A stretch of 64,000 bases of DNA from Octopus vulgaris (Eukaryota), in contig OX597826.1 of NCBI GenBank assembly GCA_951406725.2, positions 81,344,001 to 81,408,000 of the forward strand, read 5' to 3'. The position numbers and the translations under genes were made by a program. The notes beneath the pieces were generated by a model. That model worked only from the letters and a program-made list of their open reading frames with translations, had not been told where the DNA came from and searched no databases. Shown here in pieces: positions 1-59,694 of the stretch; position 1 is the first letter of the stretch; each line of letters begins with the position of its first letter.

Positions 1-486
1 GATTTGTGTGATAAATCATTCTCTCGAATTGATACTCTAACAGTTCACAGGCACATTCATACAGGAGAGAAACCATATTGGTGTGATATCTGTGGTAAAT
101 CATTCCCTCGAAATCGTGCCTTGATTGATCACAAATGCATTCATACTGGGGAAAAGCGATTCCATTGTGATGTTTGTGGTAAAGCATTCGTTCAAAGTAA
201 TGTTTTAAAGGGACATATACTCATTCATACTGGGGAAAGACCATATCACTGTGATATCTGTGGTAAATCATTTGCTAAAAGTACTGCTGTAACTGTACAC
301 AAACATATTCACACTAAAGAAAAGCCATATCATTGCGATATCTGTGGTAAATCATTCTCTCGCAGAAATTATCTGGCTAAGCACACGAGTATTCATACAG
401 CTTCAAGACTACATCACTGTAATATCTGTGATAAATCATTCTCTCAGCATGATGAATTAACTAATCACATATGTATTCCTACATGA
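1..486 (+). CDS. C2H2 zinc-finger gene 1 (5' part outside window); last 6 fingers
   Basis: Cx2C-x12-Hx3H repeats with TGEKPY linkers; near-identical to 7519-8007; TGA at 484-486. Confidence 0.92.
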
Positions 487-854
487 GACAAAACACATCA
501 TTGATACAAACATTGTATCAGCACTCTGATGCTGATGATCTTAAGAGAAAAGTTGAGCATAAGAGGCATGAGATGTGGTGTGAAAGAGAGATGACTGTGA
601 TGCGTATGGATGAGGACAGGAAGCAGTGCAGTTTGGGAGATAACTAAGGGTGTACCTTAGGGTGGAAGGAAATTATGAAACTAAATAGGAACCTGCAAGT
701 GTCGTTGTTATATTAATCTTTACATAAAAACAAAATGTGTGGAATTATCATCATCAACATTTCTCTAACATTTTGTCATTTCATTAGTTTGAAATTTAAA
801 ATTCCAGAGTTCTGGCTGCACCAATCCTTGTGAATATTCTTGATTTGAAATCGA

Positions 855-860
855 AATAAA
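855..860 (+). terminator. Putative poly(A) signal in a conserved 3' UTR block (paralogous sites 9497, 34119, 43049, 50208, 60866)
   Basis: AATAAA inside the shared block CCAGAGTTCT...AATAAAA(C/A)TGGTTTACTCT found downstream of six ZNF genes. Confidence 0.55.
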
Positions 861-955
861 ACTGGTTTACTCTTAAAGTGTTCTCGTTTTTTATCAAATA
901 AATGAAAGTTTTTACTGATTTCAACATCATTTTACAGGCATTTTAAATACATATA

Positions 956-1132
956 TGTAAAAAGCACCCACTACACTCTCGGAGTGGTTGGCATTAGGAA
1001 GAGTATCCAGCTGTAGAAACTCTGCCAGATCAAGATTGGAGCCTGGTGCAGCCATCTGGCTCGCCAGCCCTCAGTCAAAATCGTCCAACCCATGCCAGCA
1101 ATGGAAAGCGGACGTTAAACGATGATGATGAT
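956..1132 (+). mobile_element. RTE LINE 3' tail fragment
   Basis: AAAAGCACCCACTACACTC...CCAACCCATGC...GGACGTTAAAC(GAT)n, the same terminus as the longer RTE copies. Confidence 0.8.
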
Positions 1133-1268
1133 ATGTGTGATTACTTTTATATCAAGAGCAATCGACATTACAACACGAAAATTACTTATAAGATATGGTA
1201 ATAATTTGAAGAAGAATAACAATTGCTGGAAACTTTATTCGTTTTTTATGGAGTGCTATTAACATTAT

Positions 1269-3458
1269 TATCATCATTTAATGTCCTTTTTCCATACTAG
1301 CATGGGTTGGGTGGTTCGACTGGGGTCTCGGAAGCCAGATGCTGCACCAGGCTCCAGTCTGATCTGGCAGTATTCCTATTGCCAACCACTGCGTGAGTGT
1401 AGTAGGTGCCTTTTATGTGCCACCAGCACAGGGGCCAGAGGAGGCTGGCAACAGCCATGATCAGTTGGTGCTTTTTATGTGCCACTGGCACGGAAGCCAG
1501 TCAAGGCAGCACTGGCATCAGCCACGTTCGGATGGTGCTTTTTATGTGCCACTGGCACAGGTATCACAACTACAATTTCCATTTGATTTTCATTTTTATG
1601 TTGATGTACTTGACTCAATAGGTCTCCTCAAGTACAGCAGGTCACCCTATGATCCAAGGTACTTTTGAATGGGCTGGGGCTGGTTATGTGAAACTGGTGT
1701 AGGATATAACCATGAACTCACTTTATTTGCCGGGACTTCACAGACACAGCATATCTCCAGAGGTCTCGGTCTTTCATTATTGCCTCTGTGAGGCCCAACG
1801 TTCAAAGGTCATGCTTGACCACCTCACCCCATGTCTTCCTGGGTCTGCCTCTACCCTGAATTCCTTCAACTGTTTGGGAGTGGCACTTCTTCACACATCT
1901 CTCCTCATCCATCTGTAGTACATGAGCGTACAAACATCCTCTCTTGCACACCACATCTGATGCTTCTTATGTCTAACATTTCTCTCAGGGCACTTACACA
2001 TTACACATCCAGCGGATCGTGCTAGCTTCATTTCTTTCAAGCCTACACATGCCCTCTGCAGTCACAGCCCATGTTTCACTACCGTGAAGCATGGCAGTTT
2101 GCACACATGCATCGTACAATCTGCCTTTCACTCTGAGCGGGAGACCCTTTGTCACTAGTAGGGGTTGGAGCTTTCTGAACTTTGCCCAGGCTATTCGTAT
2201 TCTAGTGGTGACACTCTCTGAGCATCTACCTCCACTACTAACTTGGTCACCCAGGTAGCGGAAACTATCAACTACTTCTAGTTTCTCCCCCTGGAGTATG
2301 ATGGAATCTGTTTTCTGAGTATCTGTGGTGTCTATGGTCCCTGTGCATCTGCCGCACACAAAAGCTATCTTCTTGGTTAATCTTTCTTTCATGTTGCTGC
2401 ACCTCTTATGTGTCCATAGCTTATACTGGGTACATCTTATGGGGTTTCGACCTACACCTTTTCTACAGATCAAGCAAAGCCACCTACCTGAAGGGGTGTG
2501 TGATGAGTTTGCCTTCTTACTAGAACTTTGGTCTTTGCTACATTGACTCTAAGGCCTTTTGATTCTAAACCTTGCTTCCACACCTGGAATTTCTTTTCTA
2601 GTTCCAGTAGTGATTCTGCTATGAGGGTCAGGTCATCAGTATAGAGGAGCTCCCCGGGGCAACCTGTCTTGAATTTGTAAGAATTAGCACTTCCTTCTCT
2701 AAGCCTTGATTCAAAATCGAATCCAAGAATCCTCGGTTGTCCAAACCAATGCAATTAAAGGCGCGAAAGCAAGAACCCCTTTGTTCTGTCAAAAAGTGAT
2801 TGATCATCTCCCTTTGACCTACGACCTCAGCCATGTCAGGCTAAGTTCAACTGGACAAGTGCTGACCTAAATAACCACTGTTTCTGTTGCGATATGTCTG
2901 TTTTTCTAGCTGTCACAAATATTATAAATACAAGGGAAAAACAGAAGGGACAAACGGGAGACGAGATAGATCTATCTACGCCCCAAGTTTATGGCAGACG
3001 ACAGACAGAGAGAAATGCTCACAGTGTCTATCGACTACTGTTTTGAATGAAACATGCACACAAACATATTCATTTTTAATATGTGCTCTATACAAGCAAT
3101 TCGTAGCATTTGCTTACATTTGTATGTAGTGTACTTATAACCCTGTAAATAAATTCCTTTTAATCATGAAGCGGTTTATGTATTTGTTTACGTACACACA
3201 TATCCACTACAAATTCCTCTGTTATTGGCTGGAGGTCTATGATGAATAAAAGGGGACTGAGGGCTGAACCTTGGTGGACCCCTACTTCTACCCAGAATTC
3301 TTCACTATACTCATTGCCAATCCTAACCTTACAATCAGCCTCTCTGTATAGGGCCTGTACAGCCCTTATTAACCATTTGTTAGTTTCCGCATCGCCCACC
3401 AGATAAGAGATCAGGGGATCCTGTCAAAGGCTTTCTCCAAGTCCACAAAAGCTAGGTA
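1269..3458 (-). mobile_element. 5'-truncated RTE LINE (RT palm/thumb plus 3' UTR), split by a solo LTR
   Basis: ORF fragments GVHQGSALSPLLF, ELLYTDDL, FRYLG, LHGSETW; collinear with 53092-54740. Confidence 0.9.
2676..3211 (+). mobile_element. Solo LTR (536 bp), Gypsy-like
   Basis: TGTA...TACA ends; 4-bp TSD AATT (2672-2675 and 3212-3215) splits the RTE sequence GAATTCCTCT; TATAAATA 2923-2930; AATAAA 3148-3153. Confidence 0.8.
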
Positions 3459-3970
3459 TCTATGTTTTTATTAAACAAATCAATAGAAAATAGTAGCTGT
3501 AACATACTAAAATGGTTCCATTGCAGAATATTGCCAAGTGCAATAAATTCATAACGTCATTTCAGCTTTAATGTATTTTATGAAAAATGGATAGGATTTG
3601 CATTTTCAGTAAAATTGCAAATATTTGGGAAATGAAGTGTTGGAGTGTGGCATATATTAACCACAGTATATTATCATTAATTATTAATTAACCCTAGTCA
3701 AACGAAATCAGTAGTTGAACTTGGTAAAAAAAAAACTGGACAAAACACAGGATTTGAAGAGCAAACTTAATTAGTGGTTTGTTATGTAAAGAAATGGCCT
3801 GTATCTTTACCATGTGTTTCTTTAGAAAGCTAAAATAACCAGCAATCATTCATCAGTTGAATAATTGAAATAATTTGAGATTTTAAAGAATATTGTTAAT
3901 TATTGAAGAAAAAAATTGTTAGCTTCAGACCCTTTCTGTTAGTTTCATCAGATTAGATTGTTTTTTTCGA

Positions 3971-4543
3971 TTCCTGTTGGGGCAAGTGAAATCGGAAACG
4001 AAATTGAACCAATCCTATGACTGGCACCCGGCAGTTGCCAGAGCCGCTCGACTGACTCCTGTGCAGGTGGCAAGTAAATAAACAGTGTTTCGACCCTGTG
4101 CTTGAGGAGACCTATGGAGTCAAGTACCCCAACATCAAGAATCAATGGAAACTGTACTTGTGATCCCTGTCCCGGTGGAACGAAAAAGCATCATCCGAAC
4201 ATGGCCGATGCCAGCGCCACCTAGACTGGCTTCCGTGCCGGTGGCATGTAAAAAGCATCATCCGAATGTGGCCGATGCCAGCGCCGCCTTGAATGGCTTC
4301 CGTGCCGGTGGCACGTAAAAAGCACCAATCCGATCGTGGCCGTTGCCAGCCACGCCTGGCACGTAAAAAGCACCCACTACACTCACGGAGTGGTTGGCAT
4401 TAGGAAGGGCATCCAGCTGTAGAAACACTGCCAGATCAGACTGGAGCCTGGTGCAGCCTCCTGGCTTCCCAGATCCCTGGTTGAACTGTCCAACCCATGC
4501 TAGAATGGAGAACGGACGTTAAACAATGATGATGGTGATGATG
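3971..4543 (+). mobile_element. RTE 3' UTR with internal ~55-bp tandem repeats
   Basis: Repeated AAAAGCA..ATCCGAA..TGGCCGATGCCAG..GGTGGCACGT units, ending in a (GAT)n tail. Confidence 0.8.
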
Positions 4544-5354
4544 AAAGCATTGTGATAATCAGAAAACCTCTTTTCTTCACCATTTTAAGTTACGCACGTA
4601 TATTAAAGTTTTATTGTTTGGAAAATGGTGAATTATAAGATTAATTTATTTTTAATTTGTTCTGGCAGAAATTTGTCAGTCCAAGTTGTGCTTTGGGATC
4701 TGAGCAAACATTACAAGTCAAGGCAGGGGTACGTTGTGCAAGGCATTTGGGTATCCTGACTTCTGGAGTTATCATTAGTAGTCTACATTTTGGCTTTCTT
4801 TAGTGTATATATGTATGTTATACAAAACTGTGTTTGTAATTATACTTCATAAATTTGATGTTGGAAATTCTCTTGTCCAAATCAGTTTCTCATCTTAAAA
4901 TTTGGGGTGGGTTGGTGATGGAGGGTGAAATTCCATTGATTTTGCTTTAAAAAATTACTGCCTCAGAATCATGATTTTCAAATTTTAAATTTAAGTCATC
5001 ACAAACATATTAGGTTATGTTTAAAAACTCCTTATTTTTTTTTATTTTTTTTAACGTAAGTTTATATTCTTGAATATGTTTAACAAATCTTCATCTGTTG
5101 TAAGCTTTAGAGTTTATCATTTTAGAGAAATCAGAAAAGGAGAAATGCGAACAACGCAAGTATAATTTGAAATTGGGTCCAGGCTAGCCCTGGCGGTAAT
5201 TTGGAAATCGATTTTAGATGACCGGGTGGTAACTTGAAATGAAGGGAACGTTGAAGGCTTTACACCGGGTTATTATCGTCATCATAATGATTACGAAACT
5301 GTGGTTGACAATAAACCTCTGTCTCCTTTTATGTTAATTGCATTCGTTTCCCTG

Positions 5355-5450
5355 ATTTTCGCCGATTCCGACCAAAGTCTGCTGCAACGATTGCCAAAGA
5401 TGTCATAGTGTTAGCCAAGCGAATTACCATTATGTAAAGAAAACGTGAGT
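5355..5450 (+). promoter_or_regulatory. Diverged promoter/non-coding exon 1 of ZNF gene 2; donor GTGAGT 5445-5450
   Basis: GTGAGTATTTA...GGAGAGTTTCGGAAT context matches the donor at 13636; upstream TACGAAACT motif; acceptor TTTCAG ends at 6652. Confidence 0.5.
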
Positions 5451-5860
5451 ATTTAAAGGAAATTCAAAACTACATAAATTATTTCCAAGCGGAGAGTTTC
5501 GGAATCCCACATCGACAAGTACCTGCTGCCCATCGAGTACCGTCAGCTATTCTAAAGCTCCACCGTTCTCAATATTTCCGTTTCTCCTTTGCAATTTTCA
5601 CTTTCTGTAGATTTCTTTCCCACCCATAGCTACACCTCGGACTCCGCATAGAAATCCCACCCTACTCTACCAAAGTCAATTCCTTCTCGATGGGAACAGG
5701 GTCTTCTCTTCTTTCCTATTTACTAATACATTAATTTTCGCTGTCTGTCGATTGTTTCCATGCTTGAAAGGGAGTAGAGCATCAGAATAAGGGGCTACCC
5801 CTTAGCAGCAGGCCTTAAAGTCTTTTGTTGGGGCTTAGAGAACTATAACGAACAGAAACT

Positions 5861-5897
<37 letters not shown>

Positions 5898-7062
5898 CCT
5901 GGTGCAATCCCCTCTTCCCGCTGTATTCGTAGCCATACTCTTTCTTAAGTCTCACTTTGCTCCCTATACATCGCTTGTGTGGCTCTCACAAGGCATTATT
6001 CATCTATTCCAGATGCCTTCGGTTTTCACCAGACCACAGCTATGAACCCTATCATAGTTACTTGGGCAACAAATGCTAGGTGTAGGGGCCAAGTCATGGC
6101 TAGATACTTCTCGGTTTTGACACTAAATAACATTGCTTTATATAAATATCAGTCACTTCTTGAAAAAGGATTTTCAATGTCAACTACCTAAACAACATCA
6201 ATTCGTTGCAGGCGAAATTTTCCCCTTTCATTTTCAAAGTTTCTCATTGTCCATTAATGTTTACATTCGCTATTTGCAAACAACTACGACAAATTACTGA
6301 AAGAAATATTTACTACAAATTTAAATCTTTGATATAAGATAGTTTTTACCAGTAAGGTAATATTGTTTGTTGGTCAGAGATGTGTTTATGCAAAACTAGA
6401 AACAAATGATGTTTTTCGCTTGGTAGTGACCCTTGCTTCCAACAATCAAGACAAGTAGACATTTCTTTTCTGTGGTATGATATGTATCTCTATTAGATGT
6501 TAATTTCTGCTCTGTTATGTATGAAATCATGTTGTGATACGCTGGACAAGTTCAGTTGTATTCTAAAATTTATCACCATAAAAATGTGAATTTTTGGTGA
6601 TTCTCTAGTTTAATTATTCTTTATATCTTTTACTGTTTCTCTATCATTTCAGGTCCTTGATGAAACTGGTATCGAAATATTATCTTACATCAGAAGCATC
6701 ATCAATATTTATCAGCTTTTAAAGATAAAGGAAGATTCTGTATAAGAAATATGATACTTGTATAAATCTGGGGAAGCATGGCAAAATGTTTCACTCTGGG
6801 TGAGATTATTAGCAACATTTTTGAAGGTCACTGTCTGGAATGAGAACAAAATTCTGCATTCTAAATAAATATATTTATAAATTACTTTACATCATCTTCA
6901 GATATTGGTAAAGACTGCAGCTGATGGGAATATAACTGAAGGAATACTTGTTAAAAATAATTTATAAAAAGAAAAGCAAGTGAAGTGTTCTTTTATTGTG
7001 GAGAAATAAGAAAAACTTATGTTATGAGTTAAAAGATTGCTTTAAATGTTTGTCCTTCAGAA

Positions 7063-8007
7063 ATGGCCAAAAAATTAGGAAAGTCCTCACCTGAGTGTGA
7101 TATCTGTGGAAAGTTATTCACTACAAAGGATCATCTTACTACTCATATACGTATTCATACAGGAGTGAAACCATATCAATGCGATATCTGTGGTAGATCA
7201 TTTTCTCGGTCTACTGAATTAACTACTCACAAACGTGTTCATACAGGAGAGAAACCATATAAATGTGATATCTGTGGTCAGTCATTTACACGTAGAGATG
7301 TTTTAACCAGACACAGACGTATTCACACAGGAGAGAGACCTTATCAGTGTGACACGTGTAGTAAATCATTCCCCAATAGTACGAACCTGACTGCTCACAA
7401 ACGTATTCATACTGGAGAAAAACCATATCATTGTGATTTTTGTGGTAGATCATTCACTCAAAATAACCAGCTAACTAAACACAAACGCATTCATACAGGA
7501 GAAAAGCCCTATCAATGCGATTTGTGTGATAAATCATTCTCTCGAAATGATAATCTAACAGCTCACAGGCACATTCATACAGGAGAGAAACCATATTGGT
7601 GTGATATCTGTGGTAAATCATTCCCTCGAAATAGTGCCTTGATTGATCACAAATGCATTCATACTGGGGAAAAGCGATTCCATTGTGATGTTTGTGGTAA
7701 AGCATTCGTTCAAAGTAATCTTTTAAAGGGACATATACGCATTCATACTGGGGAAAAACCATATCAGTGTGATATCTGTGGTAAATCATTTGCTAAAAGT
7801 ACTGCTGTAACTCTACACAAACATATTCACACTAAAGAAAAGCCATATCATTGCGATATCTGTGGTAAATCATTCTCTCGCAGAAATTATCTGGCTAAGC
7901 ACAAGAGTATTCATACAGCTTCAAGACTACATCACTGTAATATCTGTGATAAATCATTCTCTCAGCATGATGAATTAACTAAACACATATGTATTCCTAC
8001 ATCATGA
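7063..8007 (+). CDS. C2H2 zinc-finger gene 2, 314 aa, 11 fingers (last degenerate)
   Basis: Intact ORF; short N-terminus [11 protein letters not shown], then a tandem finger array. Confidence 0.93.
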
Positions 8008-8044
8008 GACAAAACACATCATTGATACAAACATTGTATCAGCA

Positions 8045-8646
8045 CTCTGATGCTGATGATCTTGAGAGAAAAGTTGAGCATAAGAGGCATGAGATGTGGT
8101 GTGAAAGAGAGATGACTGTGATGCGTATGGACGAGGACAACTGCATAAAGAAGTGCCAATCTCTAACTGTGGAGGGTAGCTAGGGTAGAGGTAGACTCAG
8201 GAATACATGGTACGAGGCAATGACTAGTGACCGAGACCTTTGACAATATGCTGTGCTTGAGAAAACTTGTCAAGCAAGGTGAAGTCGTAGTTGTGGATAA
8301 TGCTGGTTGCATGTAAAAAGCAGCTTTTGAGTGTTTGACCACACGGGGGCAATCACAGAGGCCTTTGGCATTGCGCCGTGCTAGAGAATAAAAACCATCA
8401 AGCCAAGTAAAGTCACAGTTGTGGAAGATACCGGTGTCATGCAAATGGCACCCGTGCCAGTGTGACTTAATAGCACCCATTACACTCTCAGAGTGGTTGG
8501 CATTAGGAATAGCCTTCAGCTATAGAAACCATGCCAAATCAGACTGGAGTCTGGTGCAGACTTCCCGCTTACCAGCTCTGGTCAAACTGTCCAACCCATA
8601 CCAACATGGACAACAGACATTAAATGATATTGATGATGATGATGAT
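8045..8646 (+). mobile_element. Degraded RTE 3' end within the 3' UTR of gene 2
   Basis: RMDEDNCIKKCQSLTVEG remnant, RTE tail and (GAT)n. Confidence 0.75.
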
Positions 8647-8689
8647 ATTACCAACAGTTTGGTTGTTGGTAATATCTTCAGTATTTCTT

Positions 8690-8880
8690 GTCCATGTTTA
8701 ATGCTGGAATGGGTTGAATAGTCTGAGAGAGGATCTGATGGGACGAAGGGCTGCATGGTGCTTCACTGTCTGCTTTGGCCTGGTTTCTATCTTTGGATGT
8801 CCTTCTTAATGCCAGCCACTTCACAGCATGTGCTGGGTACCTGTTCTCCATGATACCAGTGCTCATGAGGCTGTCATGAA
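8690..8880 (-). mobile_element. Degraded antisense RTE tail
   Basis: ATGCTGGAATGGGTTG...TTTCTAT..TGGATGTCCTTCTTAATGCCAGCCAC. Confidence 0.6.
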
Positions 8881-10019
8881 GTTTGTAAGGTTTCAAACCC
8901 AGGGAGGTGGGGGGGGAACTTTATGATAGGAGCTGAGGGGCATAAGATGGATAAGCATGAGGCGGATAAGAGGGACAGATGGAAAGTTGTGGCTGCTGAC
9001 TTCAACGGGGAATGAGGCCGCATGCCATCCCATGACACGGAGCTTGTTGGCTAAGTCCTGATATTTCAATTCCTTTAGCTGGTGGTAAAGTCAATCCTCC
9101 TGGGGCAGTGTGAGTCTGACCATGATGATAGTTTTTGTATTCCTGGAGTGCAGGAATGCAAATTGTATTGGTGGGGGTGGAGTAGAGAAGAGTATTAATG
9201 GACGAAAAGTGGGAAACAAGGGAAATGGTGCTGGACAGTAAGAAAAGAAAGTGGTTACATGGAAGCAGTGCAGTTTGGGAGATAACTAAGGGTGTACCTT
9301 AGGGTGGAAGGAAATGGTGAAACTAAATAGGAACCTGCAAGTGTCGTTGTTATATTAATCTTTACATAAAAACAAAATGTGTGGAATTATCATCATCAAC
9401 ATTTCTCTAACATTTTGTCATTTCATTAGTTTGAAATTTAAAACTCCAGAGTTCTGGCTGCACCAATCCTTGTGAATATTCTTGATTTGAAATCGAAATA
9501 AAACTGGTTTACTCTTAAAATGTTCTCGTTTTTTATCAAATTAATGAAAGTTTTTACTGATTTCAACATCATTTTACAGGCATTTTAAATACATATATGT
9601 AAAAAGCACCCACTACACTCTCGGAGTGGTTGGCATTAGGAAGAGCTGTTAATAAAACAATTTCGATTTTATTATATAAACATGTTAAGGTGAAATAAAT
9701 ATATGTAAAAAGCCCCTGTTCTGATACCACAAATAAGTGCCCTGTAAAGTGGTTGGTGTTAGGAATAGCATCTTGCAATAGAAATCTTGCTAAAACAGGT
9801 AATTGGAGCCTGGGCGGCTCTCCAGCCTTGCCAACACCTGTCAGACTATCCAGCATTAAATGAAGATGAGGAGTTGAACTGGTTTTTTATAAGTTACTAT
9901 GAAATATCCAGCAAGGAACTCATTTATTTTTAGCAGTAGAGTTGATGGAGACTGTGTAAAGCCATCTTTAATATTCTTCTTTAGGAAGAATATTACAGCA
10001 TTGAGCCTCATGGAGGCAA

Positions 10020-40744: not shown

Positions 40745-41860
40745 ATGGCAAAAAGCTTAGCAAAGTCTTCATATGAATGTGATGTCTGTAAAAAGTCATT
40801 AAGTTCAAGATGTAAACTAACTGCTCATGTACGTATTCATACAGGGGAGAAACCATATCACTGTGTTATCTGTGGTAAAATGTTCTGTAGATCTGATGAA
40901 TTAACTATTCATATACGTCTTCATACAGGAGAGAAACCATATCAGTGTGATATCTGTGGTCACTCGTTCATTCGTAAAGATATTTTAACTACACACAGAC
41001 GTATTCACACAGGAGAGAAACCATATCAGTGTGATATGTGCAGTAAATCATTTGCTAAAAGTACTAATTTAACTGATCACAAACGCATTCATACTGGAGA
41101 AAGACCATACCATTGTGATATCTGCGGTAAATCATTCAATCAAAATAACCAGTTAGTTAAACACAAACGCATTCATACAGGAGAAAAGCCTTATCAATGT
41201 GATACCTGTGACAAAGCATTCTCTCGTAATGCTGAGTTAATTGCTCACAAACACATTCATACAGGAGAAAAACCTTATCAATGTGATATCTGTGGTAAAT
41301 CATTCCGTCAAAATAACAAGTTAATTAAACACAAATGTATTCATACTGGAGAAAAGCGATTTCATTGTGATGTTTGTGGAAAAGCATTCTCTCAGAGTAC
41401 GACTGTAAAAATGCACAAACGTATTCATACCAGAGAAAAACCATATCACTGTGATATCTGTGAGAAATCATTCATTCGAAGTAATGATTTAGAGGTCCAT
41501 AAGCGCATTCATTCTGGAGAAAAACCATATCATTGTGATATCTGTGGTAAATCGTACGCACAAAGTAGTGCCTTAAATTATCATAAACACATCCATACTG
41601 GAGAGGCACCATATCAGTGTAATATCTGCGGTAAATCATTCCCTACAAATAATTCCCTGAGTGGTCATAAACGTATTCATACTGGGGAAACACCGTATCA
41701 TTGTGATATCTGTGGTAAATCTTTCTCTCAAAGTACTGCTGTAACTGTCCATAAACGTATTCATACAGGAGAGAAGCCATATCATTGTGATATCTGTGGT
41801 AAATCATTCAATCAAAATAACCACTTAATTAAACACAAACGTATTCATACAGGAGAATAG
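40745..41860 (+). CDS. C2H2 zinc-finger gene 5, 371 aa, 13 fingers, ending at TAG in a linker
   Basis: ORF ends HTGE*. Confidence 0.88.
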
Positions 41861-47915: not shown

Positions 47916-49031
47916 ATGGCAAAAAGCTTAGCAAAGTCTTCTTACGAATGTGATGTCTGTAAAAAGTCATTAAGTTCAAGAGGTACACTAACTGCTCATG
48001 TACGTATTCATACAGGAGAGAAACCATATCACTGTGTTATCTGTGGTAAAAGATTCACTAGAACAGATGACTTGACTGTTCATGTACGTGCTCATACAGG
48101 AGAGAAGCCATATCAGTGTGATATCTGTGGTCAGTCGTTCACTCGTACAGATATTTTAACCACACACAAACGTATTCACACAGGAGAGAAACCATATCAA
48201 TGTGATATGTGCAGTAAATCATTCGCTAAAAGTACCAACTTAACTGATCACAAACGCATTCATACTGGAGAAAGACCATACCATTGTGATATCTGCGGTA
48301 AATCATTCAATCAAAATAACCAGTTAGTTAAACACAAACGCATTCATACAGGAGAAAAGCCTTATCAATGTGATACCTGTGACAAAGCATTCTCTCGTAA
48401 TGCTGAGTTAATTGCTCACAAATACATTCATACAGGAGAAAAACCTTATCAGTGTGATATCTGTGGTAAATCATTCCGTCAAAATAACAAGTTAATTAAA
48501 CACAAATGTATTCATACTGGAGAAAAACGATTTCATTGTGATGTTTGTGGAAAAGCATTCTCTCAGAGTACGGATGTGAAAATGCACAAACGTATTCATA
48601 CCAGAGAAAAACCATATCACTGTGATATCTGTGGTAAATCATTCATTCGAAGTAATGATTTAGAGGTCCATAAGCGCTTTCATACTGGAGAAAAACCACA
48701 TCATTGTGATATCTGTGGTAAATCATTCACACGAAGTAGTGCCTTAAATTCTCATAAACGCATCCATACTGGAGAGGCACCATATCAGTGTAATATCTGC
48801 GGTAAATCATTCCCTACAAATAATTCCTTGAGTGGTCATAAACGTATTCATACTGGGGAAACACCGTATCATTGTGATATCTGTGGTAAATCTTTCTCTC
48901 AAAGTACTGCTGTAACTGTACATAAACGTATTCATACAGGAGAGAAGCCATATCACTGTGATATCTGTGGTAAATCATTCAGTCGAAATAACCACTTAAC
49001 TAGACACAAACGTATTCATACAGGAGAATAG
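47916..49031 (+). CDS. C2H2 zinc-finger gene 6, 371 aa, 13 fingers, TAG in a linker
   Basis: ORF ends HTGE*; two in-frame fingers to TGA 49200-49202; decayed tail to 49635. Confidence 0.88.
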   Translation: MAKSLAKSSYECDVCKKSLSSRGTLTAHVRIHTGEKPYHCVICGKRFTRTDDLTVHVRAHTGEKPYQCDICGQSFTRTDILTTHKRIHTGEKPYQCDMCSKSFAKSTNLTDHKRIHTGERPYHCDICGKSFNQNNQLVKHKRIHTGEKPYQCDTCDKAFSRNAELIAHKYIHTGEKPYQCDICGKSFRQNNKLIKHKCIHTGEKRFHCDVCGKAFSQSTDVKMHKRIHTREKPYHCDICGKSFIRSNDLEVHKRFHTGEKPHHCDICGKSFTRSSALNSHKRIHTGEAPYQCNICGKSFPTNNSLSGHKRIHTGETPYHCDICGKSFSQSTAVTVHKRIHTGEKPYHCDICGKSFSRNNHLTRHKRIHTGE

Positions 49032-53091: not shown

Positions 53092-55348
53092 CACCATCAT
53101 CATCATCATCATTTAGCGTCCATTCTCCATGCTAGCACGGGTTGGACAGTTCAACCGGGGTCTGGGAAGCCAGAAGGCTGCATCAGGCCCAGTCTGATCT
53201 GGCAATGTTTCTACAGCTGGATGCCCTTCCTAACGCCAACCACTCCGCGAGTGTAGTGGGTGCTTTTTACGTGCCACCGGCCACGTTCGGTTGGTGCTTT
53301 TAACGTGCCACCGGCACGGAAGCCAGTCGATGCGGCACTGTCATCGGCCTCGTTCGGATGGTGCTTTTTATATGCCACCGGCCCAAGTATCACAACTACT
53401 ATTTCCATTGATATTTATTTCGATGTTCATCTACTTGACTCAATAGGTTTCCTCAAGCACAGCGGGATGTTCTGGTATCGAAGGTACTTTGAATGGGCAG
53501 GGGCTATGCGGGACTGGTGCAGGAAGCAGCCCGGGCCTTTGCAGCGATCTCGGTCCTTCGTCATTGCCTGTGTGAGGCCGAACGCTCTGAGGTCATGCTT
53601 GACTACCTCATCCCATGTCTTCCTGGGTCTACCTCTCTCCCTGATACCTTCAACTGTTTGGCAGCGGCACTTCTTCACACATCTCTCCTCATCCATCCGC
53701 AGTACATGACCATACCATCGCAAGCGTCGGTCTTGCACACCACATCTGATGCTTCTTATGTCCAGCATTTCTCTCAGGGTGCTTACACTCGGTCGTGCGC
53801 GCACACTGACATTACACATCCAGCGGATCATGCTACCTTCATTTCTTTCAAGCCTACGCATGCCCTCTGCAGTCACAGCCCATGTTTCACTACCGTGAAG
53901 CATGGCAGTTTGCACACATGCATCGTACAATCTGCCTTTCACTCTGAGCGAGAGACCCTTTGTCGCCAGTAGGGGTAGGAGCTTTCTAAACTTTGCCCAG
54001 GCTATTCGTATTCTAGTGGTGACACTCTCTGAGCATCCCCCTCCACTACTAACTTGGTCACCTAGGTAGCGGAAACTATCTACTACTTCTAGTTTTTTCC
54101 CCTGAAGTGTAATGGAATCTGTTTTCTGAGCATCTGTGGTGTCTATTGTCCCTGTGCATCTGCTGCACATGAAAGCTATCTTATCAGTTAATTTCCCTTT
54201 GATGTTGCTGCACCTTTTATGCATCCATAGCTTACACTGGGTACATCTTATGGAGCTTCTACCTACACCTTTCCTACATATCGAGCAGGGCCACCTGCCC
54301 GAGGGTGTGTGTGCTGAGTTCGCCTTTCTGCTTACTATAACTTTGGTCTTTGCTACATTTACTGTAAGGCCCTTTGATTCTAACCCTTGCTTCCACACCC
54401 AAAATTTCTTTTCTAGTTCCGGTAGTGATTCTGCTATGAGAGCCAGGTCATCAGCATAGAGGAGCTCCCAGGGGCAACCTGTTTTGAATTCCTCTGTTAT
54501 TGCCTGGAGGACTATGATGAATAAAAGGGGACTGAGGGCTGAGCCTTGGTGTACACCTACTTCTACCCGGAATTTTTCACTATATTCGTTGCCAATTCTA
54601 ACCTTGCTGACAGCCTCTCTGTATAAGGCCTGTACAGCCCTTATTAGCCATTTGTCAATCTCCAGTTTCCGCATCAACCACCAGATAAGGGATCGGTGGA
54701 CCCTGTCAAAGGCTTTCTCCAAGTCCACAAAAGCTATGTAGAGGGGTTTATCATTAGCTAGGTACTTCTCCTGCAGTTGTCGGACCAAGAATATAGAATC
54801 AGTGGTGCTTCTACCTGGCACAAATCCGAACTGCATCTCATCTAAGCAAATTCTCTCCCTAATGAGATGGGTTATAACCCTCTCTGTGACCTTCATCACC
54901 TGATCCAACAGTTTAATACCCCTGTAGTTATTTCTATCTAGAGCATCACCCTTACCCTTGTAGCAGTTGACTATGGTGCTGCTACGCCAGTCATTGGGTA
55001 TGATTCCAATATGAACTACCTGGTTTACAATGCGGGTGACTAGGCCATAGCCCACATAACCAACTGTTTTAAGCATCTCAGCAGTGATACCTGATGGGCC
55101 AGGGGCTTTACCTGGTTTCATACCCTTAATTGCCTTAACTACAAGGGAGCTGTCTATTCGGATAGCTGGTCCCTCTACTGGGTCAACATTTGGCAGGCTC
55201 TCCTCCTCCCATTCATTCTCCACATTCAGCAGTCTTTCATAATGGCTTCTCCAAGCCTCTTTCTTTTCACCAACATTAAAAGCAAGTGCCCCGTCATCCA
55301 TGCGGACACATTTCTCTCCTGTAACATTACTATTTTCTCTCACACACT
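53092..55348 (-). mobile_element. Young 5'-truncated RTE LINE
   Basis: (CAT)n tail, 3' UTR repeats, long open RT frame. Confidence 0.95.
53427..55343 (-). CDS. RTE reverse transcriptase ORF fragment (638 aa; no endonuclease; PHD insert)
   Basis: KAPGPSG, NYRGIKLL, QFGF, FVDLEKAFD, GVHQGSALSPLLF, YADD, FRYLG; no true start, and the C-terminus is likely frameshifted. Confidence 0.85.
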   Translation of the reverse strand: MRENSNVTGEKCVRMDDGALAFNVGEKKEAWRSHYERLLNVENEWEEESLPNVDPVEGPAIRIDSSLVVKAIKGMKPGKAPGPSGITAEMLKTVGYVGYGLVTRIVNQVVHIGIIPNDWRSSTIVNCYKGKGDALDRNNYRGIKLLDQVMKVTERVITHLIRERICLDEMQFGFVPGRSTTDSIFLVRQLQEKYLANDKPLYIAFVDLEKAFDRVHRSLIWWLMRKLEIDKWLIRAVQALYREAVSKVRIGNEYSEKFRVEVGVHQGSALSPLLFIIVLQAITEEFKTGCPWELLYADDLALIAESLPELEKKFWVWKQGLESKGLTVNVAKTKVIVSRKANSAHTPSGRWPCSICRKGVGRSSIRCTQCKLWMHKRCSNIKGKLTDKIAFMCSRCTGTIDTTDAQKTDSITLQGKKLEVVDSFRYLGDQVSSGGGCSESVTTRIRIAWAKFRKLLPLLATKGLSLRVKGRLYDACVQTAMLHGSETWAVTAEGMRRLERNEGSMIRWMCNVSVRARPSVSTLREMLDIRSIRCGVQDRRLRWYGHVLRMDEERCVKKCRCQTVEGIRERGRPRKTWDEVVKHDLRAFGLTQAMTKDRDRCKGPGCFLHQSRIAPAHSKYLRYQNIPLCLRKPIESSR

Positions 55349-57948: not shown

Positions 57949-58494
57949 CTATATGCACAGTATTATAGAGATACGCTGGAGGAGTTCATTCGTTCTAGTC
58001 AAGGTTTCACTTGTACAATTTATAAGTATAGCAATAACATTGATGCTGTTTATGTATCCTTGAAAGCTTATACTGTTTTCCTTCTTATTTCAGAATCAAA
58101 GCTGGAACTGGCATCAACATTTTTGTTTATCATACAACAGAAGCATCAACAATATTTATCATCTTTTAAAGACTAAAAATGTTATACTGAACAAATCTGA
58201 CCATTTTCACATAAATTTAATGAATGATGGTTGAAAGATTTCCCCTGGGTAAGATTATTAGCAACAGTTGTGTGTGTCATTCCCTGGAATGAGTACAATA
58301 CAATTCTGCATTGAAAATATATGAAGATCGATTTATGAAGCACTTTGCATCCAGATGATGGACTTGTAGCAGAAGGAATGTTTGTTAGAAATAAATTATA
58401 GAAAGGAAAACAGCAAACATAATATATTGTGGTGAGAGAAGGAAGAATTATTATTCAATGAAATAAACAACTGTTATTTTTTGGTTCTTAAAAG

Positions 58495-59694
58495 ATGGCA
58501 AAAAGCTTAGCAAAGTCTTCATATGAATGTGATGTCTGTAAAAAGTCATTAAGTTCAAGAGGTACACTAACTGCTCATGTACGTATTCATACAGGAGAGA
58601 AACCATATCACTGTGTTATCTGTGGTAAAAGATTCACTAGAACAGATGACTTGACTGTTCATGTACGTGCTCATACAGGAGAGAAACCATATCAGTGTGA
58701 TATCTGTGGTCAGTCGTTCACTCGTACAGATATTTTAACCACACACAAACGTATTCACACAGGAGAGAAACCATATCAATGTGATATGTGCAGTAAATCA
58801 TTCGCTAAAAGTACCAACTTAACTGATCACAAACGCATTCATACTGGAGAAAGACCATACCATTGTGATATCTGCGGTAAATCATTCAATCAAAATAACC
58901 AGTTAGTTAAACACAAACGCATTCATACAGGAGAAAAGCCTTATCAATGTGATACCTGTGACAAAGCATTCTCTCGTAATGCTGAGTTAATTGCTCACAA
59001 ATACATTCATACAGGAGAAAACCCTTATCAATGTGATATCTGTGGTAAATCATTCCGTCAAAATAACAAGTTAATTAAACACAAACGTATTCATACTGGA
59101 GAAAAACGATTTCATTGTGATGTTTGTGGTAAAGCATTCTCTCAGAGTACGGATGTGAAAATGCACAAACGTATTCATACCAGAGAAAAACAATATCACT
59201 GTGATATCTGTGGTAAATCATTCATTCGAAGTAAAGATTTAGAGGTCCATAAGCACATTCATTCTGGAGAAAAACCATATGATTGTGATATCTGTGGTAA
59301 ATCGTACGCACAAAGTAGTGCCTTAAATTCTCATAAACACATCCATACTGGAGAGGCACCATATCAGTGTAATATCTGCGGTAAATCATTCCCTACAAAT
59401 AATTCCCTGAGTGGTCATAAACGTATTCATACTGGGGAAACACCGTATCATTGTGATATCTGTGGTAAATCTTTCTCTCAAAGTACTGCTGTAACTGTAC
59501 ATAAACGTATTCATACAGGAGAGAAGCCATATTATTGTGATATCTGTGGTAAATCTTTCTCTCGAAGTACTGCTGTAACTGTACATAAACGTATTCATAC
59601 AGGAGAGAAGCCCTATCACTGTGATATCTGTGGTAAATCATTCAATCGAAATAGCCACGTAACTAGACACAAACGTATTCATACAGGAGAATAG
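58495..59694 (+). CDS. C2H2 zinc-finger gene 7, 399 aa, 14 fingers, TAG in a linker
   Basis: One extra 84-bp finger relative to genes 5 and 6; two in-frame fingers to TGA 59863-59865; decayed tail to 60298. Confidence 0.88.
   Translation: MAKSLAKSSYECDVCKKSLSSRGTLTAHVRIHTGEKPYHCVICGKRFTRTDDLTVHVRAHTGEKPYQCDICGQSFTRTDILTTHKRIHTGEKPYQCDMCSKSFAKSTNLTDHKRIHTGERPYHCDICGKSFNQNNQLVKHKRIHTGEKPYQCDTCDKAFSRNAELIAHKYIHTGENPYQCDICGKSFRQNNKLIKHKRIHTGEKRFHCDVCGKAFSQSTDVKMHKRIHTREKQYHCDICGKSFIRSKDLEVHKHIHSGEKPYDCDICGKSYAQSSALNSHKHIHTGEAPYQCNICGKSFPTNNSLSGHKRIHTGETPYHCDICGKSFSQSTAVTVHKRIHTGEKPYYCDICGKSFSRSTAVTVHKRIHTGEKPYHCDICGKSFNRNSHVTRHKRIHTGE

What the first reader, a model, noticed from the sequence alone, without database searches (positions are those of the whole stretch)
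1..8007. ZNF genes 1 and 2 differ almost only by amino-acid changes at DNA-contact positions
Seen: comparing 1-483 with 7519-8001 by eye gives 11 substitutions, all non-synonymous and none synonymous. Seven lie in recognition helices, six of them at positions 2, 3 or 6 (RNDNLTA>RIDTLTV, RNS>RNR, QSNL>QSNV, AVTL>AVTV, ELTK>ELTN). Known: C2H2 positions -1, 2, 3 and 6 read DNA bases, and PRDM9 and KRAB-ZFPs show this signature. Inference: strong diversifying selection on binding specificity.
Basis: partly seen in the sequence, partly recalled or inferred. Interest (0 to 1): 0.75.

Follow-up and report, generated by a model that had tools for sequence, protein, structure and literature searches.

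The report
Young zinc-finger duplicates retuning DNA contacts
Two recently duplicated zinc-finger genes, probably of an octopus, keep their zinc-binding core unchanged while their DNA-reading residues change about twice as fast as silent sites, which likely reflects modest selection for new DNA targets, a pattern already well known from vertebrate zinc-finger families.

Summary
The counts are right: 11 substitutions, all non-synonymous, 7 in helices, 6 at +2/+3/+6. The title is not. The window edge hides the 5' half of gene 1. Full length, the pair differs by 10 synonymous and 22 non-synonymous changes (dN/dS 0.70-0.78), only 10 of them at contact positions, and gene 1 has three extra fingers. 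A contact excess remains: 10/99 sites versus 10/227 synonymous (ratio 2.3, p 0.03-0.05, uncorrected for a hand-picked pair) and 1.4-3.1% flank divergence, with no change in the zinc core. Gene 1 alone breaks three helix residues otherwise invariant in 26 paralogs. Across the subfamily the signal fades: contact dN/dS is about 1.0 in C-terminal fingers and 0.65 in N-terminal fingers, and M7/M8 on the alignable N-terminal block is not significant. The arrays are mosaics, likely from gene conversion, and at least one difference is not fixed. No KRAB or SET domain was found, and there is no PRDM9-type array. Verdict: real paralogs with modest, probably episodic contact-site diversification of a known kind; 'strong diversifying selection' is overstated.

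The parts
1..486 (+). 3' part of ZNF gene 1: fingers 9-14 of a 397-aa, 14-finger ORF whose ATG lies at window -707 (G000:C13:81343293). The last finger lacks its second His.
28..45 (+). Gene 1 helix RIDTLTV. The changes N>I (+1), N>T (+3) and A>V (+6) are derived in gene 1; N at +1 is present in 25 of 26 paralogs.
487..1003 (+). 3' flank of gene 1, homologous to 8008-8139 and 9261-9645 (7 differences in 517). Gene 1 lacks the 1,121 bp between those two pieces.
2092..7062 (+). Upstream part of the duplicated unit of gene 2, homologous to window -5432..-708 (95 differences in 4018 aligned bases). Used as the neutral yardstick. No Pfam domain in the 57 plus-strand ORFs scanned from window 717-7091.
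7063..8007 (+). ZNF gene 2: a single 314-aa ORF with an 11-aa leader and 11 C2H2 fingers, no effector domain detected. Its alleles are seen in contigs of two runs guessed to be RNA.
7063..7518 (+). 5' half of gene 2, whose gene-1 counterpart lies outside the window: 10 synonymous and 11 non-synonymous differences, plus the three extra fingers of gene 1.
7180..7578 (+). Fingers 2-6, the N-terminal block shared by 26 paralogs, with near-invariant contact residues in fingers 3-6 and contact dN/dS below 1.
7519..8001 (+).

Best explanation
Genes 1 and 2 are young tandem duplicates of a zinc-finger-only gene whose zinc-binding core is unchanged while DNA-contact residues differ about 2.3 times as often as silent sites, likely because a short episode of positive selection, mainly on gene 1, is retuning which DNA it binds. 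Shown: a roughly 7.5-kb unit was duplicated (flanks 1.4-3.1% apart); gene 1 gained three fingers; gene 1 carries 6 and gene 2 carries 4 derived contact changes; no core residue changed; and gene 1 is the only one of 26 paralogs to lose N(+2) and K(+6) of the fifth block finger and N(+1) of the sixth. Inferred: the new residues (Ile, Thr, Val, Cys, Asn) would weaken or alter base reading, so gene 1 would leave the target shared by its relatives while staying folded. The all-non-synonymous look of the window is this modest excess plus the window edge, which hid a 5' half rich in synonymous differences that were likely imported by gene conversion. What the proteins bind (transposons are the literature's lead) is untested.
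For: Contact 10/98.6 versus synonymous 10/226.6, Fisher p 0.046 (kappa 2) or 0.027 (kappa 3); versus flank rates of 1.4-3.1%, p 1e-3 to 1e-6. Polarised over both branches plus the extra segment: contact 14/224 versus synonymous 12/513 (ratio 2.7, p 0.009) and core 0/357 (p 0.002), so this is not general decay. Both genes independently changed the same contact codon (finger 1, +2: G>S and G>D). Most derived contact alleles have only short exact context (5-15 nt) in the other fingers of a 303-finger set, so they look like new point mutations; the one exception (K>N, 27 nt) runs into the conserved linker. Framework-linked finger pairs beyond finger 6 give contact ratios of 1.20-1.40 (p 0.21, 0.035, 0.0009). 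The same pattern is established for vertebrate poly-ZF paralogs (PMC2604467, passages).
Against: The pair was chosen after the fact, and the p value against dS is borderline. Each branch alone is not significant (p 0.12 and 0.20). The extra-segment ratio depends on polarisation (unpolarised 5/27 versus 9.5/61, about 1.2). Other young pairs give 0.57, 0.94 and 1.37. Family ML gives contact dN/dS 0.99-1.17 (p 0.2-0.9) and 0.63-0.72. A branch-site mixture finds no class above 1 at contacts (LR 1.6 and 2.4, rough optimiser). M7/M8 p 0.17-0.59. Coding synonymous divergence runs above flank divergence, so the flank yardstick likely overstates the excess. Gene 1 also has rare residues at framework sites (+9 R>L, 3 of 303; +8 K>T, 4 of 303). 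Gene 2's K at the last +6 is absent from gene-2-type contigs of two studies. Two of the contact differences are conservative V/L swaps.
Confidence: 0.5

Rival explanations
1. Relaxed constraint in a young duplicate. The fold is still protected but contact residues drift at dN/dS near 1. Unfixed variants, the window edge and the choice of the most striking pair supply the apparent excess.
For: Family-level contact dN/dS is about 1.0 in C-terminal fingers. Under the family's constraints 36-37% of amino-acid changes are expected at contacts, so 6 of 11 (P=0.19) and 10 of 22 (P=0.24) are unremarkable. Other pairs scatter around 1. One contact difference is unfixed. Gene 1's new residues are rare in the family, framework sites included.
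Against: Contact changes are 3-7 times the flank rate and 2.3 times dS in the full pair. Other helix and linker sites run at 0.5-0.8 of dS on the main branches. Zero synonymous among 11 has P=0.001-0.002 under family constraints.
Confidence: 0.33
2. Gene conversion and unequal crossing-over between paralogs and between fingers imported the differences, so pairwise dN/dS has no meaning here.
For: Arrays are mosaic. The nearest gene changes from finger to finger. Gene 0 and gene 2 differ by 2.6% upstream but by 23% at synonymous sites in fingers 1-6. One pair is 0.3% apart upstream and 20% at synonymous sites, with the break near the ATG. Synonymous differences between genes 1 and 2 are uneven (10/112 versus 0/115, p 0.0007).
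Against: Imported tracts would carry synonymous changes, yet the 3' half has none. No donor with matching context exists among 303 fingers for most derived contact alleles (donors elsewhere in the genome were not examined). The site-incompatibility test for recombination is only marginal (p 0.053).
Confidence: 0.1
3. Artefact: the two genes are alleles assembled in tandem, or the differences are consensus errors.
For: Gene 1's derived helix alleles at L001:9029-9044 were not shown on any long listed contig (inconclusive). No ortholog was found to confirm them.
Against: Gene-1-unique pieces match with 0 differences in two DNA runs of different studies (the three-finger junction in X10 and X12), and X12 also holds a gene-1 extra-finger piece with 1 difference. 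X12 holds gene-0-, gene-1- and gene-2-type pieces together. Gene-2 alleles appear in X1 and X4. The units differ by large indels and the region has no N. One of the DNA runs could be the assembly's own source.
Confidence: 0.04
4. Gene 1 is decaying into a pseudogene.
For: Many derived residues are rare in the family. The transcript evidence for gene 1 is thin: two short gene-1-type contigs in X4.
Against: The 397-aa frame is open, and there are 0 changes in 200 core sites on the gene-1 branch against 8 synonymous changes in 287 sites (p 0.014).
Confidence: 0.03

Closest known systems
Lineage-specific poly-ZF / KRAB-ZFP expansions (Emerson and Thomas 2009, PMC2604467; passages)
   Same: Tandem clusters of young paralogs with a conserved framework, faster change at helix -1/+3/+6, gain and loss of whole fingers, and some gene conversion.
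   Different: No KRAB, SCAN or BTB domain detected here. Their M7/M8 tests were strongly significant in vertebrates. Here the alignable block is not significant, like their Drosophila and Anopheles sets, which were not significant either.
Octopus-specific C2H2 expansions (Holzinger et al. 2025, PMC12513265, passages; Albertin et al. 2022, PMC9068888, passages)
   Same: A large clustered C2H2 family in a coleoid-type genome. The closest named hits to the C-terminal 60 residues by identity are Octopus proteins (56-61%).
   Different: The passages seen give no selection test: the word 'synonymous' occurs 0 times in the main text of PMC12513265. Which of their clusters this subfamily belongs to was not determined.
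Zebrafish FiNZ-ZNFs and TE-targeting metazoan ZNFs (Wells et al. 2023, PMC10547256; passages)
   Same: A non-KRAB expansion with contact residues enriched for dN/dS above 1 in some clades (2 of 7). Octopus ZNFs are predicted there to favour transposon sequences.
   Different: They ran dN/dS on zebrafish only and covered octopus by entropy and motif prediction (supplements not seen). No N-terminal domain was found here, and TE binding was not tested.
PRDM9 zinc-finger array (Baker et al. 2017, PMC5519329; passages)
   Same: Changes are concentrated at DNA-contact positions.
   Different: PRDM9 has KRAB-SSXRD-SET domains and near-identical fingers within one array. Here fingers within a gene are 69% identical in DNA, the contact share of diversity (0.29) lies at the low end of the subfamily range (0.26-0.36), and the comparison is between genes.

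Membership tests
Tandem C2H2 poly-zinc-finger genes | Tandem C-x2-C-x12-H-x3-H fingers joined by TGEKPY-type linkers | tested here: met
   13 and 10 canonical fingers plus one degenerate last finger each; Pfam zf-C2H2 and zf-H2C2_2
Tandem C2H2 poly-zinc-finger genes | Clustered, recently duplicated paralogs with finger gain or loss | tested here: met
   27 genes with an MA(K/E) start in 361 kb fetched from C13; a 252-bp gain in gene 1
Tandem C2H2 poly-zinc-finger genes | Sequence-specific DNA binding | not testable with these tools
   Needs SELEX, PBM or ChIP
Positively selected poly-ZF expansions (Emerson and Thomas type) | Site models favour a class with dN/dS above 1 (M8 over M7, M2a over M1a) | tested here: not met
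   N-block of 25 distinct sequences x 133 codons: M2a p 0.50-1.0, M8 p 0.17-0.59, M8 versus M8a p 0.06-0.47 (own implementation, M0 log-likelihood equal to IQ-TREE's). C-terminal fingers are not colinear and were tested only by position class.
Positively selected poly-ZF expansions (Emerson and Thomas type) | Contact residues change faster than synonymous sites between paralogs | tested here: inconclusive
   This pair 2.3x (p 0.03-0.05); other pairs 0.57-1.37; gene 0 versus gene 2 0.8 (fingers 1-6) and 1.8 (fingers 7-11); family 1.0-1.4 in C-terminal and 0.4-0.7 in N-terminal fingers
KRAB-ZFP | N-terminal KRAB domain | tested here: not met
   No KRAB hit in the two ORFs or in 57 upstream plus-strand ORFs of 35 aa or more. 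There is an 11-aa leader and an in-frame stop at 7030-7032. A CAG just before the ATG could serve as a splice acceptor, so a short or more distant coding exon is not excluded.
KRAB-ZFP | TRIM28 recruitment and transposon silencing | not testable with these tools
   No functional data; the feature is recalled and also seen in abstracts
PRDM9 | KRAB, SSXRD and PR/SET domains | tested here: not met
   None in the Pfam scans
PRDM9 | Homogenised minisatellite array with diversity concentrated at contact residues | tested here: not met
   Mean finger DNA identity 0.69; contact share of amino-acid diversity 0.29 in both genes, subfamily range 0.26-0.36 (statistic as in PMC5519329)

The most novel reading that the evidence does not exclude
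This subfamily is a constant-plus-variable DNA reader without any effector domain. A five-finger N-terminal block is held near-invariant across 26 paralogs (a shared target or partner), the C-terminal fingers diversify freely, and arrays are swapped between promoters by crossing-over near the ATG. Gene 1 is caught escaping the shared block under positive selection by duplicating part of it and disabling its invariant contacts.
Probability: 0.2. Interest if true: 0.55.

Novelty: new member of a known kind. Interest (0 to 1): 0.3.

Why it matters
Contact-site diversification of young zinc-finger paralogs is textbook in vertebrates, so the pattern would not surprise a specialist. Its value is local. 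My searches listed no paper that tests dN/dS by finger position in octopus C2H2 genes, so this gives a first, modest data point and a concrete pair for binding assays. It also shows that such tests in this family are confounded by mosaic arrays. The contrast between a conserved N-terminal block and free C-terminal fingers is the more useful lead for the open question of what the expanded cephalopod C2H2 genes bind.

Tried and rejected
Ortholog search failed. The whole-protein search was swamped by vertebrate ZNFs; region searches gave only distant proteins, at most 61% identical; none of 8 exact sequences was in the collection. Laying contigs on gene 1's distinctive helices was inconclusive, because short pieces of other ZNFs dominate and contigs show presence, not absence. 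No holder is on record as RNA (kinds are guesses), so expression is not established. The total-distance finger network (contact ratio 0.4-0.7) is biased downward, so it was redone on framework distance. CpG decay does not explain the high coding dS: 5 of 32 synonymous-codon differences between genes 0 and 2 are CpG-type. The first site-model run had an unoptimised scale and was discarded in favour. The branch-site mixtures used a limited optimiser, and some nested fits are slightly out of order. One control class (the non-helix 'rest' positions of C-terminal fingers) gave a large LR of 30, so such LRs are not specific to contacts. The naive finger-to-finger alignment (11 synonymous, 23 non-synonymous) was replaced by a breakpoint-aware one (10 and 22). 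PRDM9-like and pseudogene readings were rejected. No binding-motif prediction tool was available, so target sequences were not predicted. Albertin 2015 was not held and was seen only as cited.
Full report
1. Observation. A codon-by-codon comparison of window 1-483 with 7519-8001 gives 11 single-base differences, all non-synonymous: seven in recognition helices (+1, +3, +6, +2, +3, +6, +6) and four elsewhere (+9, +8, two linker sites). Gene 1 also lacks three bases just before its stop. One of the six contact sites lies in the last finger, which has no second His.

2. Context. The window is G000:C13:81344001-81408000 in a 2.8-Gb genome. The organism is probably an octopus. This is an inference: the closest named hits by identity are Octopus proteins, and earlier scan notes use the same label. 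In 361 kb fetched around three places on C13 there are 27 genes of one subfamily with an MA(K/E) start. Gene 1 begins at window -707 and encodes 397 aa with 14 fingers. Gene 2 (7063-8007) encodes 314 aa with 11. A third close copy, gene 0, lies at -13352. The duplicated unit spans about 7.5 kb. Pfam finds only zinc-finger-type and weak spurious matches in the three proteins (for genes 2 and 0 only the best 25 of 28 and 34 families were shown) and nothing in 57 upstream plus-strand ORFs. These are zinc-finger-only proteins unless a short or distant exon splices to the CAG before the ATG.

3. The window edge. With the whole of gene 1, the alignment shows a 252-bp, three-finger insertion in gene 1 and many silent differences just outside the window. 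Aligned at the true breakpoint, the genes differ by 10 synonymous changes in 227 sites and 22 non-synonymous changes in 712, so dN/dS is 0.70 at kappa 2 and 0.78 at kappa 3. All 10 synonymous changes lie in the hidden half (10/112 versus 0/115, p 0.0007). Zero synonymous in the window has P 0.04-0.05 under neutrality, 0.03-0.21 at flank rates, and 0.001-0.002 under the family's average constraints. It is unusual but not extreme for a hand-picked segment.

4. What remains. Contact positions (-1, +2, +3, +6) carry 10 changes in 98.6 sites (10%). Other non-core sites carry 12 in 457 (2.6%), and the zinc and hydrophobic core carries 0 in 157. Against dS the contact ratio is 2.3 (Fisher p 0.046 and 0.027). 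Against flanks (95/4018 upstream, 63/2022 distal, 32/1991 proximal, 7/517 downstream) it is 3-7 (p 1e-3 to 1e-6). Polarised with gene 0 and 21 colinear paralogs, gene 1 has 6 derived contact changes and gene 2 has 4, neither significant alone (p 0.12 and 0.20). Adding gene 1's extra fingers gives 14/224 versus 12/513 (p 0.009), with the core at 0/357; unpolarised, that extra segment gives only about 1.2. Gene 1 is the only exception among 26 paralogs at three positions: +2 N and +6 K of block finger 5, and +1 N of block finger 6. Its extra fingers have also lost an Arg(-1) and an Asp(+2) that are 26 of 26 in the block. Most derived contact alleles have no long matching context in 303 fingers, so they look like new mutations. 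Several framework changes in gene 1 are also to rare residues. That Ile, Val, Thr or Cys at these positions read bases poorly is recalled from the zinc-finger recognition literature and was not tested.

5. The family does not repeat the signal strongly. Three other young pairs give contact ratios of 0.94, 1.37 and 0.57; gene 0 versus gene 2 gives 0.8 for fingers 1-6 and 1.8 for fingers 7-11. On 337 fingers with an intact second His, networks linked by framework distance give 0.57-0.94 overall, 0.37-0.52 for fingers 1-6 and 1.20-1.40 beyond finger 6 (p 0.21, 0.035, 0.0009; edges not independent). ML codon models on finger trees (336 fingers, 151 and 160 distinct) give contact dN/dS 0.99-1.17 for C-terminal fingers (p 0.2-0.9 against 1) and 0.63-0.72 for N-terminal fingers (below 1, p at most 0.02), with core 0.02-0.04 and the rest 0.3. 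Branch-site mixtures show no class above 1 at contacts (LR 1.6 and 2.4). An average of 1 can hide a mix of purifying and positive episodes, and finger trees are blurred by recombination, so these tests do not exclude episodic selection.

6. Mosaic arrays. Upstream DNA of paralogs is often far closer than their coding synonymous sites: 0.3% versus 20% for 81413168/81423800, and 2.6% versus 16% for genes 0 and 2. The first pair breaks near the ATG. The nearest gene changes from finger to finger in the N-block, the incompatibility test is marginal (p 0.053), and CpG decay explains little. Conversion and unequal crossing-over are the likely cause (inference). This makes dS too high where tracts were imported and may make the flank rate too low as a yardstick, so the true contact excess in the pair lies somewhere between about 2 and 4 times neutral.

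7. Reality of the differences. Twenty listed runs from nine studies hold gene 2. Laid on gene 1, contigs of X1 and X4 (guessed to be RNA) carry the gene-2 letters at the expected places, including both V>L changes. At the last finger's +6, however, they carry N, not the assembly's K, so that difference is unfixed or private. Gene-1-unique pieces match exactly in DNA runs X10 and X12, and X12 holds pieces of all three genes; one DNA run may be the assembly's source. Gene 1's most distinctive helices were not confirmed on a long contig. No ortholog was found.

8. Mechanism. Shown: a recent tandem duplication, a finger gain in gene 1, a protected core and faster change at contacts in this pair. 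Inferred (0.5): a brief episode of positive selection, mostly in gene 1, moving it off the target shared through the N-block. Main rival (0.33): relaxed constraint at contacts plus unfixed variants and post-hoc choice. Minor rivals: conversion (0.10), artefact (0.04), decay (0.03).

9. Comparison. It works like the vertebrate poly-ZF expansions of Emerson and Thomas (PMC2604467, passages) and the zebrafish FiNZ-ZNFs of Wells et al. (PMC10547256, passages; supplements not seen). It is a member of the tandem C2H2 class and most likely of the octopus-specific expansions (PMC12513265, PMC9068888, PMC12988792; passages). It is not a KRAB-ZFP on present evidence, and it is not PRDM9-like: finger identity is 0.69 and the contact share 0.29, using the statistic of PMC5519329 (passages). 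Searches listed no position-resolved dN/dS test for octopus C2H2 genes; most subscription journals are not covered.

10. Verdict. New member of a known kind; interest 0.3.

Noticed in passing
window 7180-7578 and 25 paralogs on G000:C13 (73.9, 75.2-75.3, 81.26-81.44 Mb): Constant-plus-variable layout: fingers 3-6 have near-invariant contact residues across 26 genes (contact dN/dS 0.63-0.72 for the N-terminal fingers), while later fingers differ from gene to gene (about 1.0).
   Followed up: partly
L005:5000-5800 versus L006:5650-6450 (genes at 81413168 and 81423800): Promoter/array chimera: 2.5 kb upstream differ by 7 bases in 2486, but the arrays differ at 20% of synonymous sites; the break lies near the ATG.
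   Followed up: partly
window 41858-41860, 49029-49031, 59692-59694 and G000:C13:81414368-81414370: Four tandem genes share an in-frame stop in a linker (TGE*PYH), with two more fingers in frame behind it: a truncation that predates their duplication.
   Followed up: no
window 58492-59694 versus G000:C13:81413168-81414367: Two copies 10.7 kb apart with identical coding sequence over 14 fingers and 0.4% upstream divergence: a very recent duplication or an assembly duplicate.
   Followed up: no
window 53427-55346 (-), with a fragment at 1994-2548 (-): A 639-aa open reverse-transcriptase frame (RVT_1, E 1e-27) with a weak, sub-threshold PHD-like cysteine cluster just after the RT domain; related fragments recur through the window. 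Probably a LINE; the clade was not determined.
   Followed up: partly
window 618/619 versus 8140-9260: Gene 1 lacks 1,121 bp of 3' flank that genes 0 and 2 have; a short contig over this junction is seen in X10 and X4.
   Followed up: partly
L001:9056-9113: A 233-246-base contig in X10 and in X15 (organism B) matches these 58 bases exactly but not the sequence on either side: likely another paralog sharing a tract, not among the genes fetched.
   Followed up: no
window 7049-7062: A pyrimidine-rich stretch and CAG two bases before the ATG look like a splice acceptor, although gene-2-type contigs run on upstream through it; an alternative isoform is possible.
   Followed up: no
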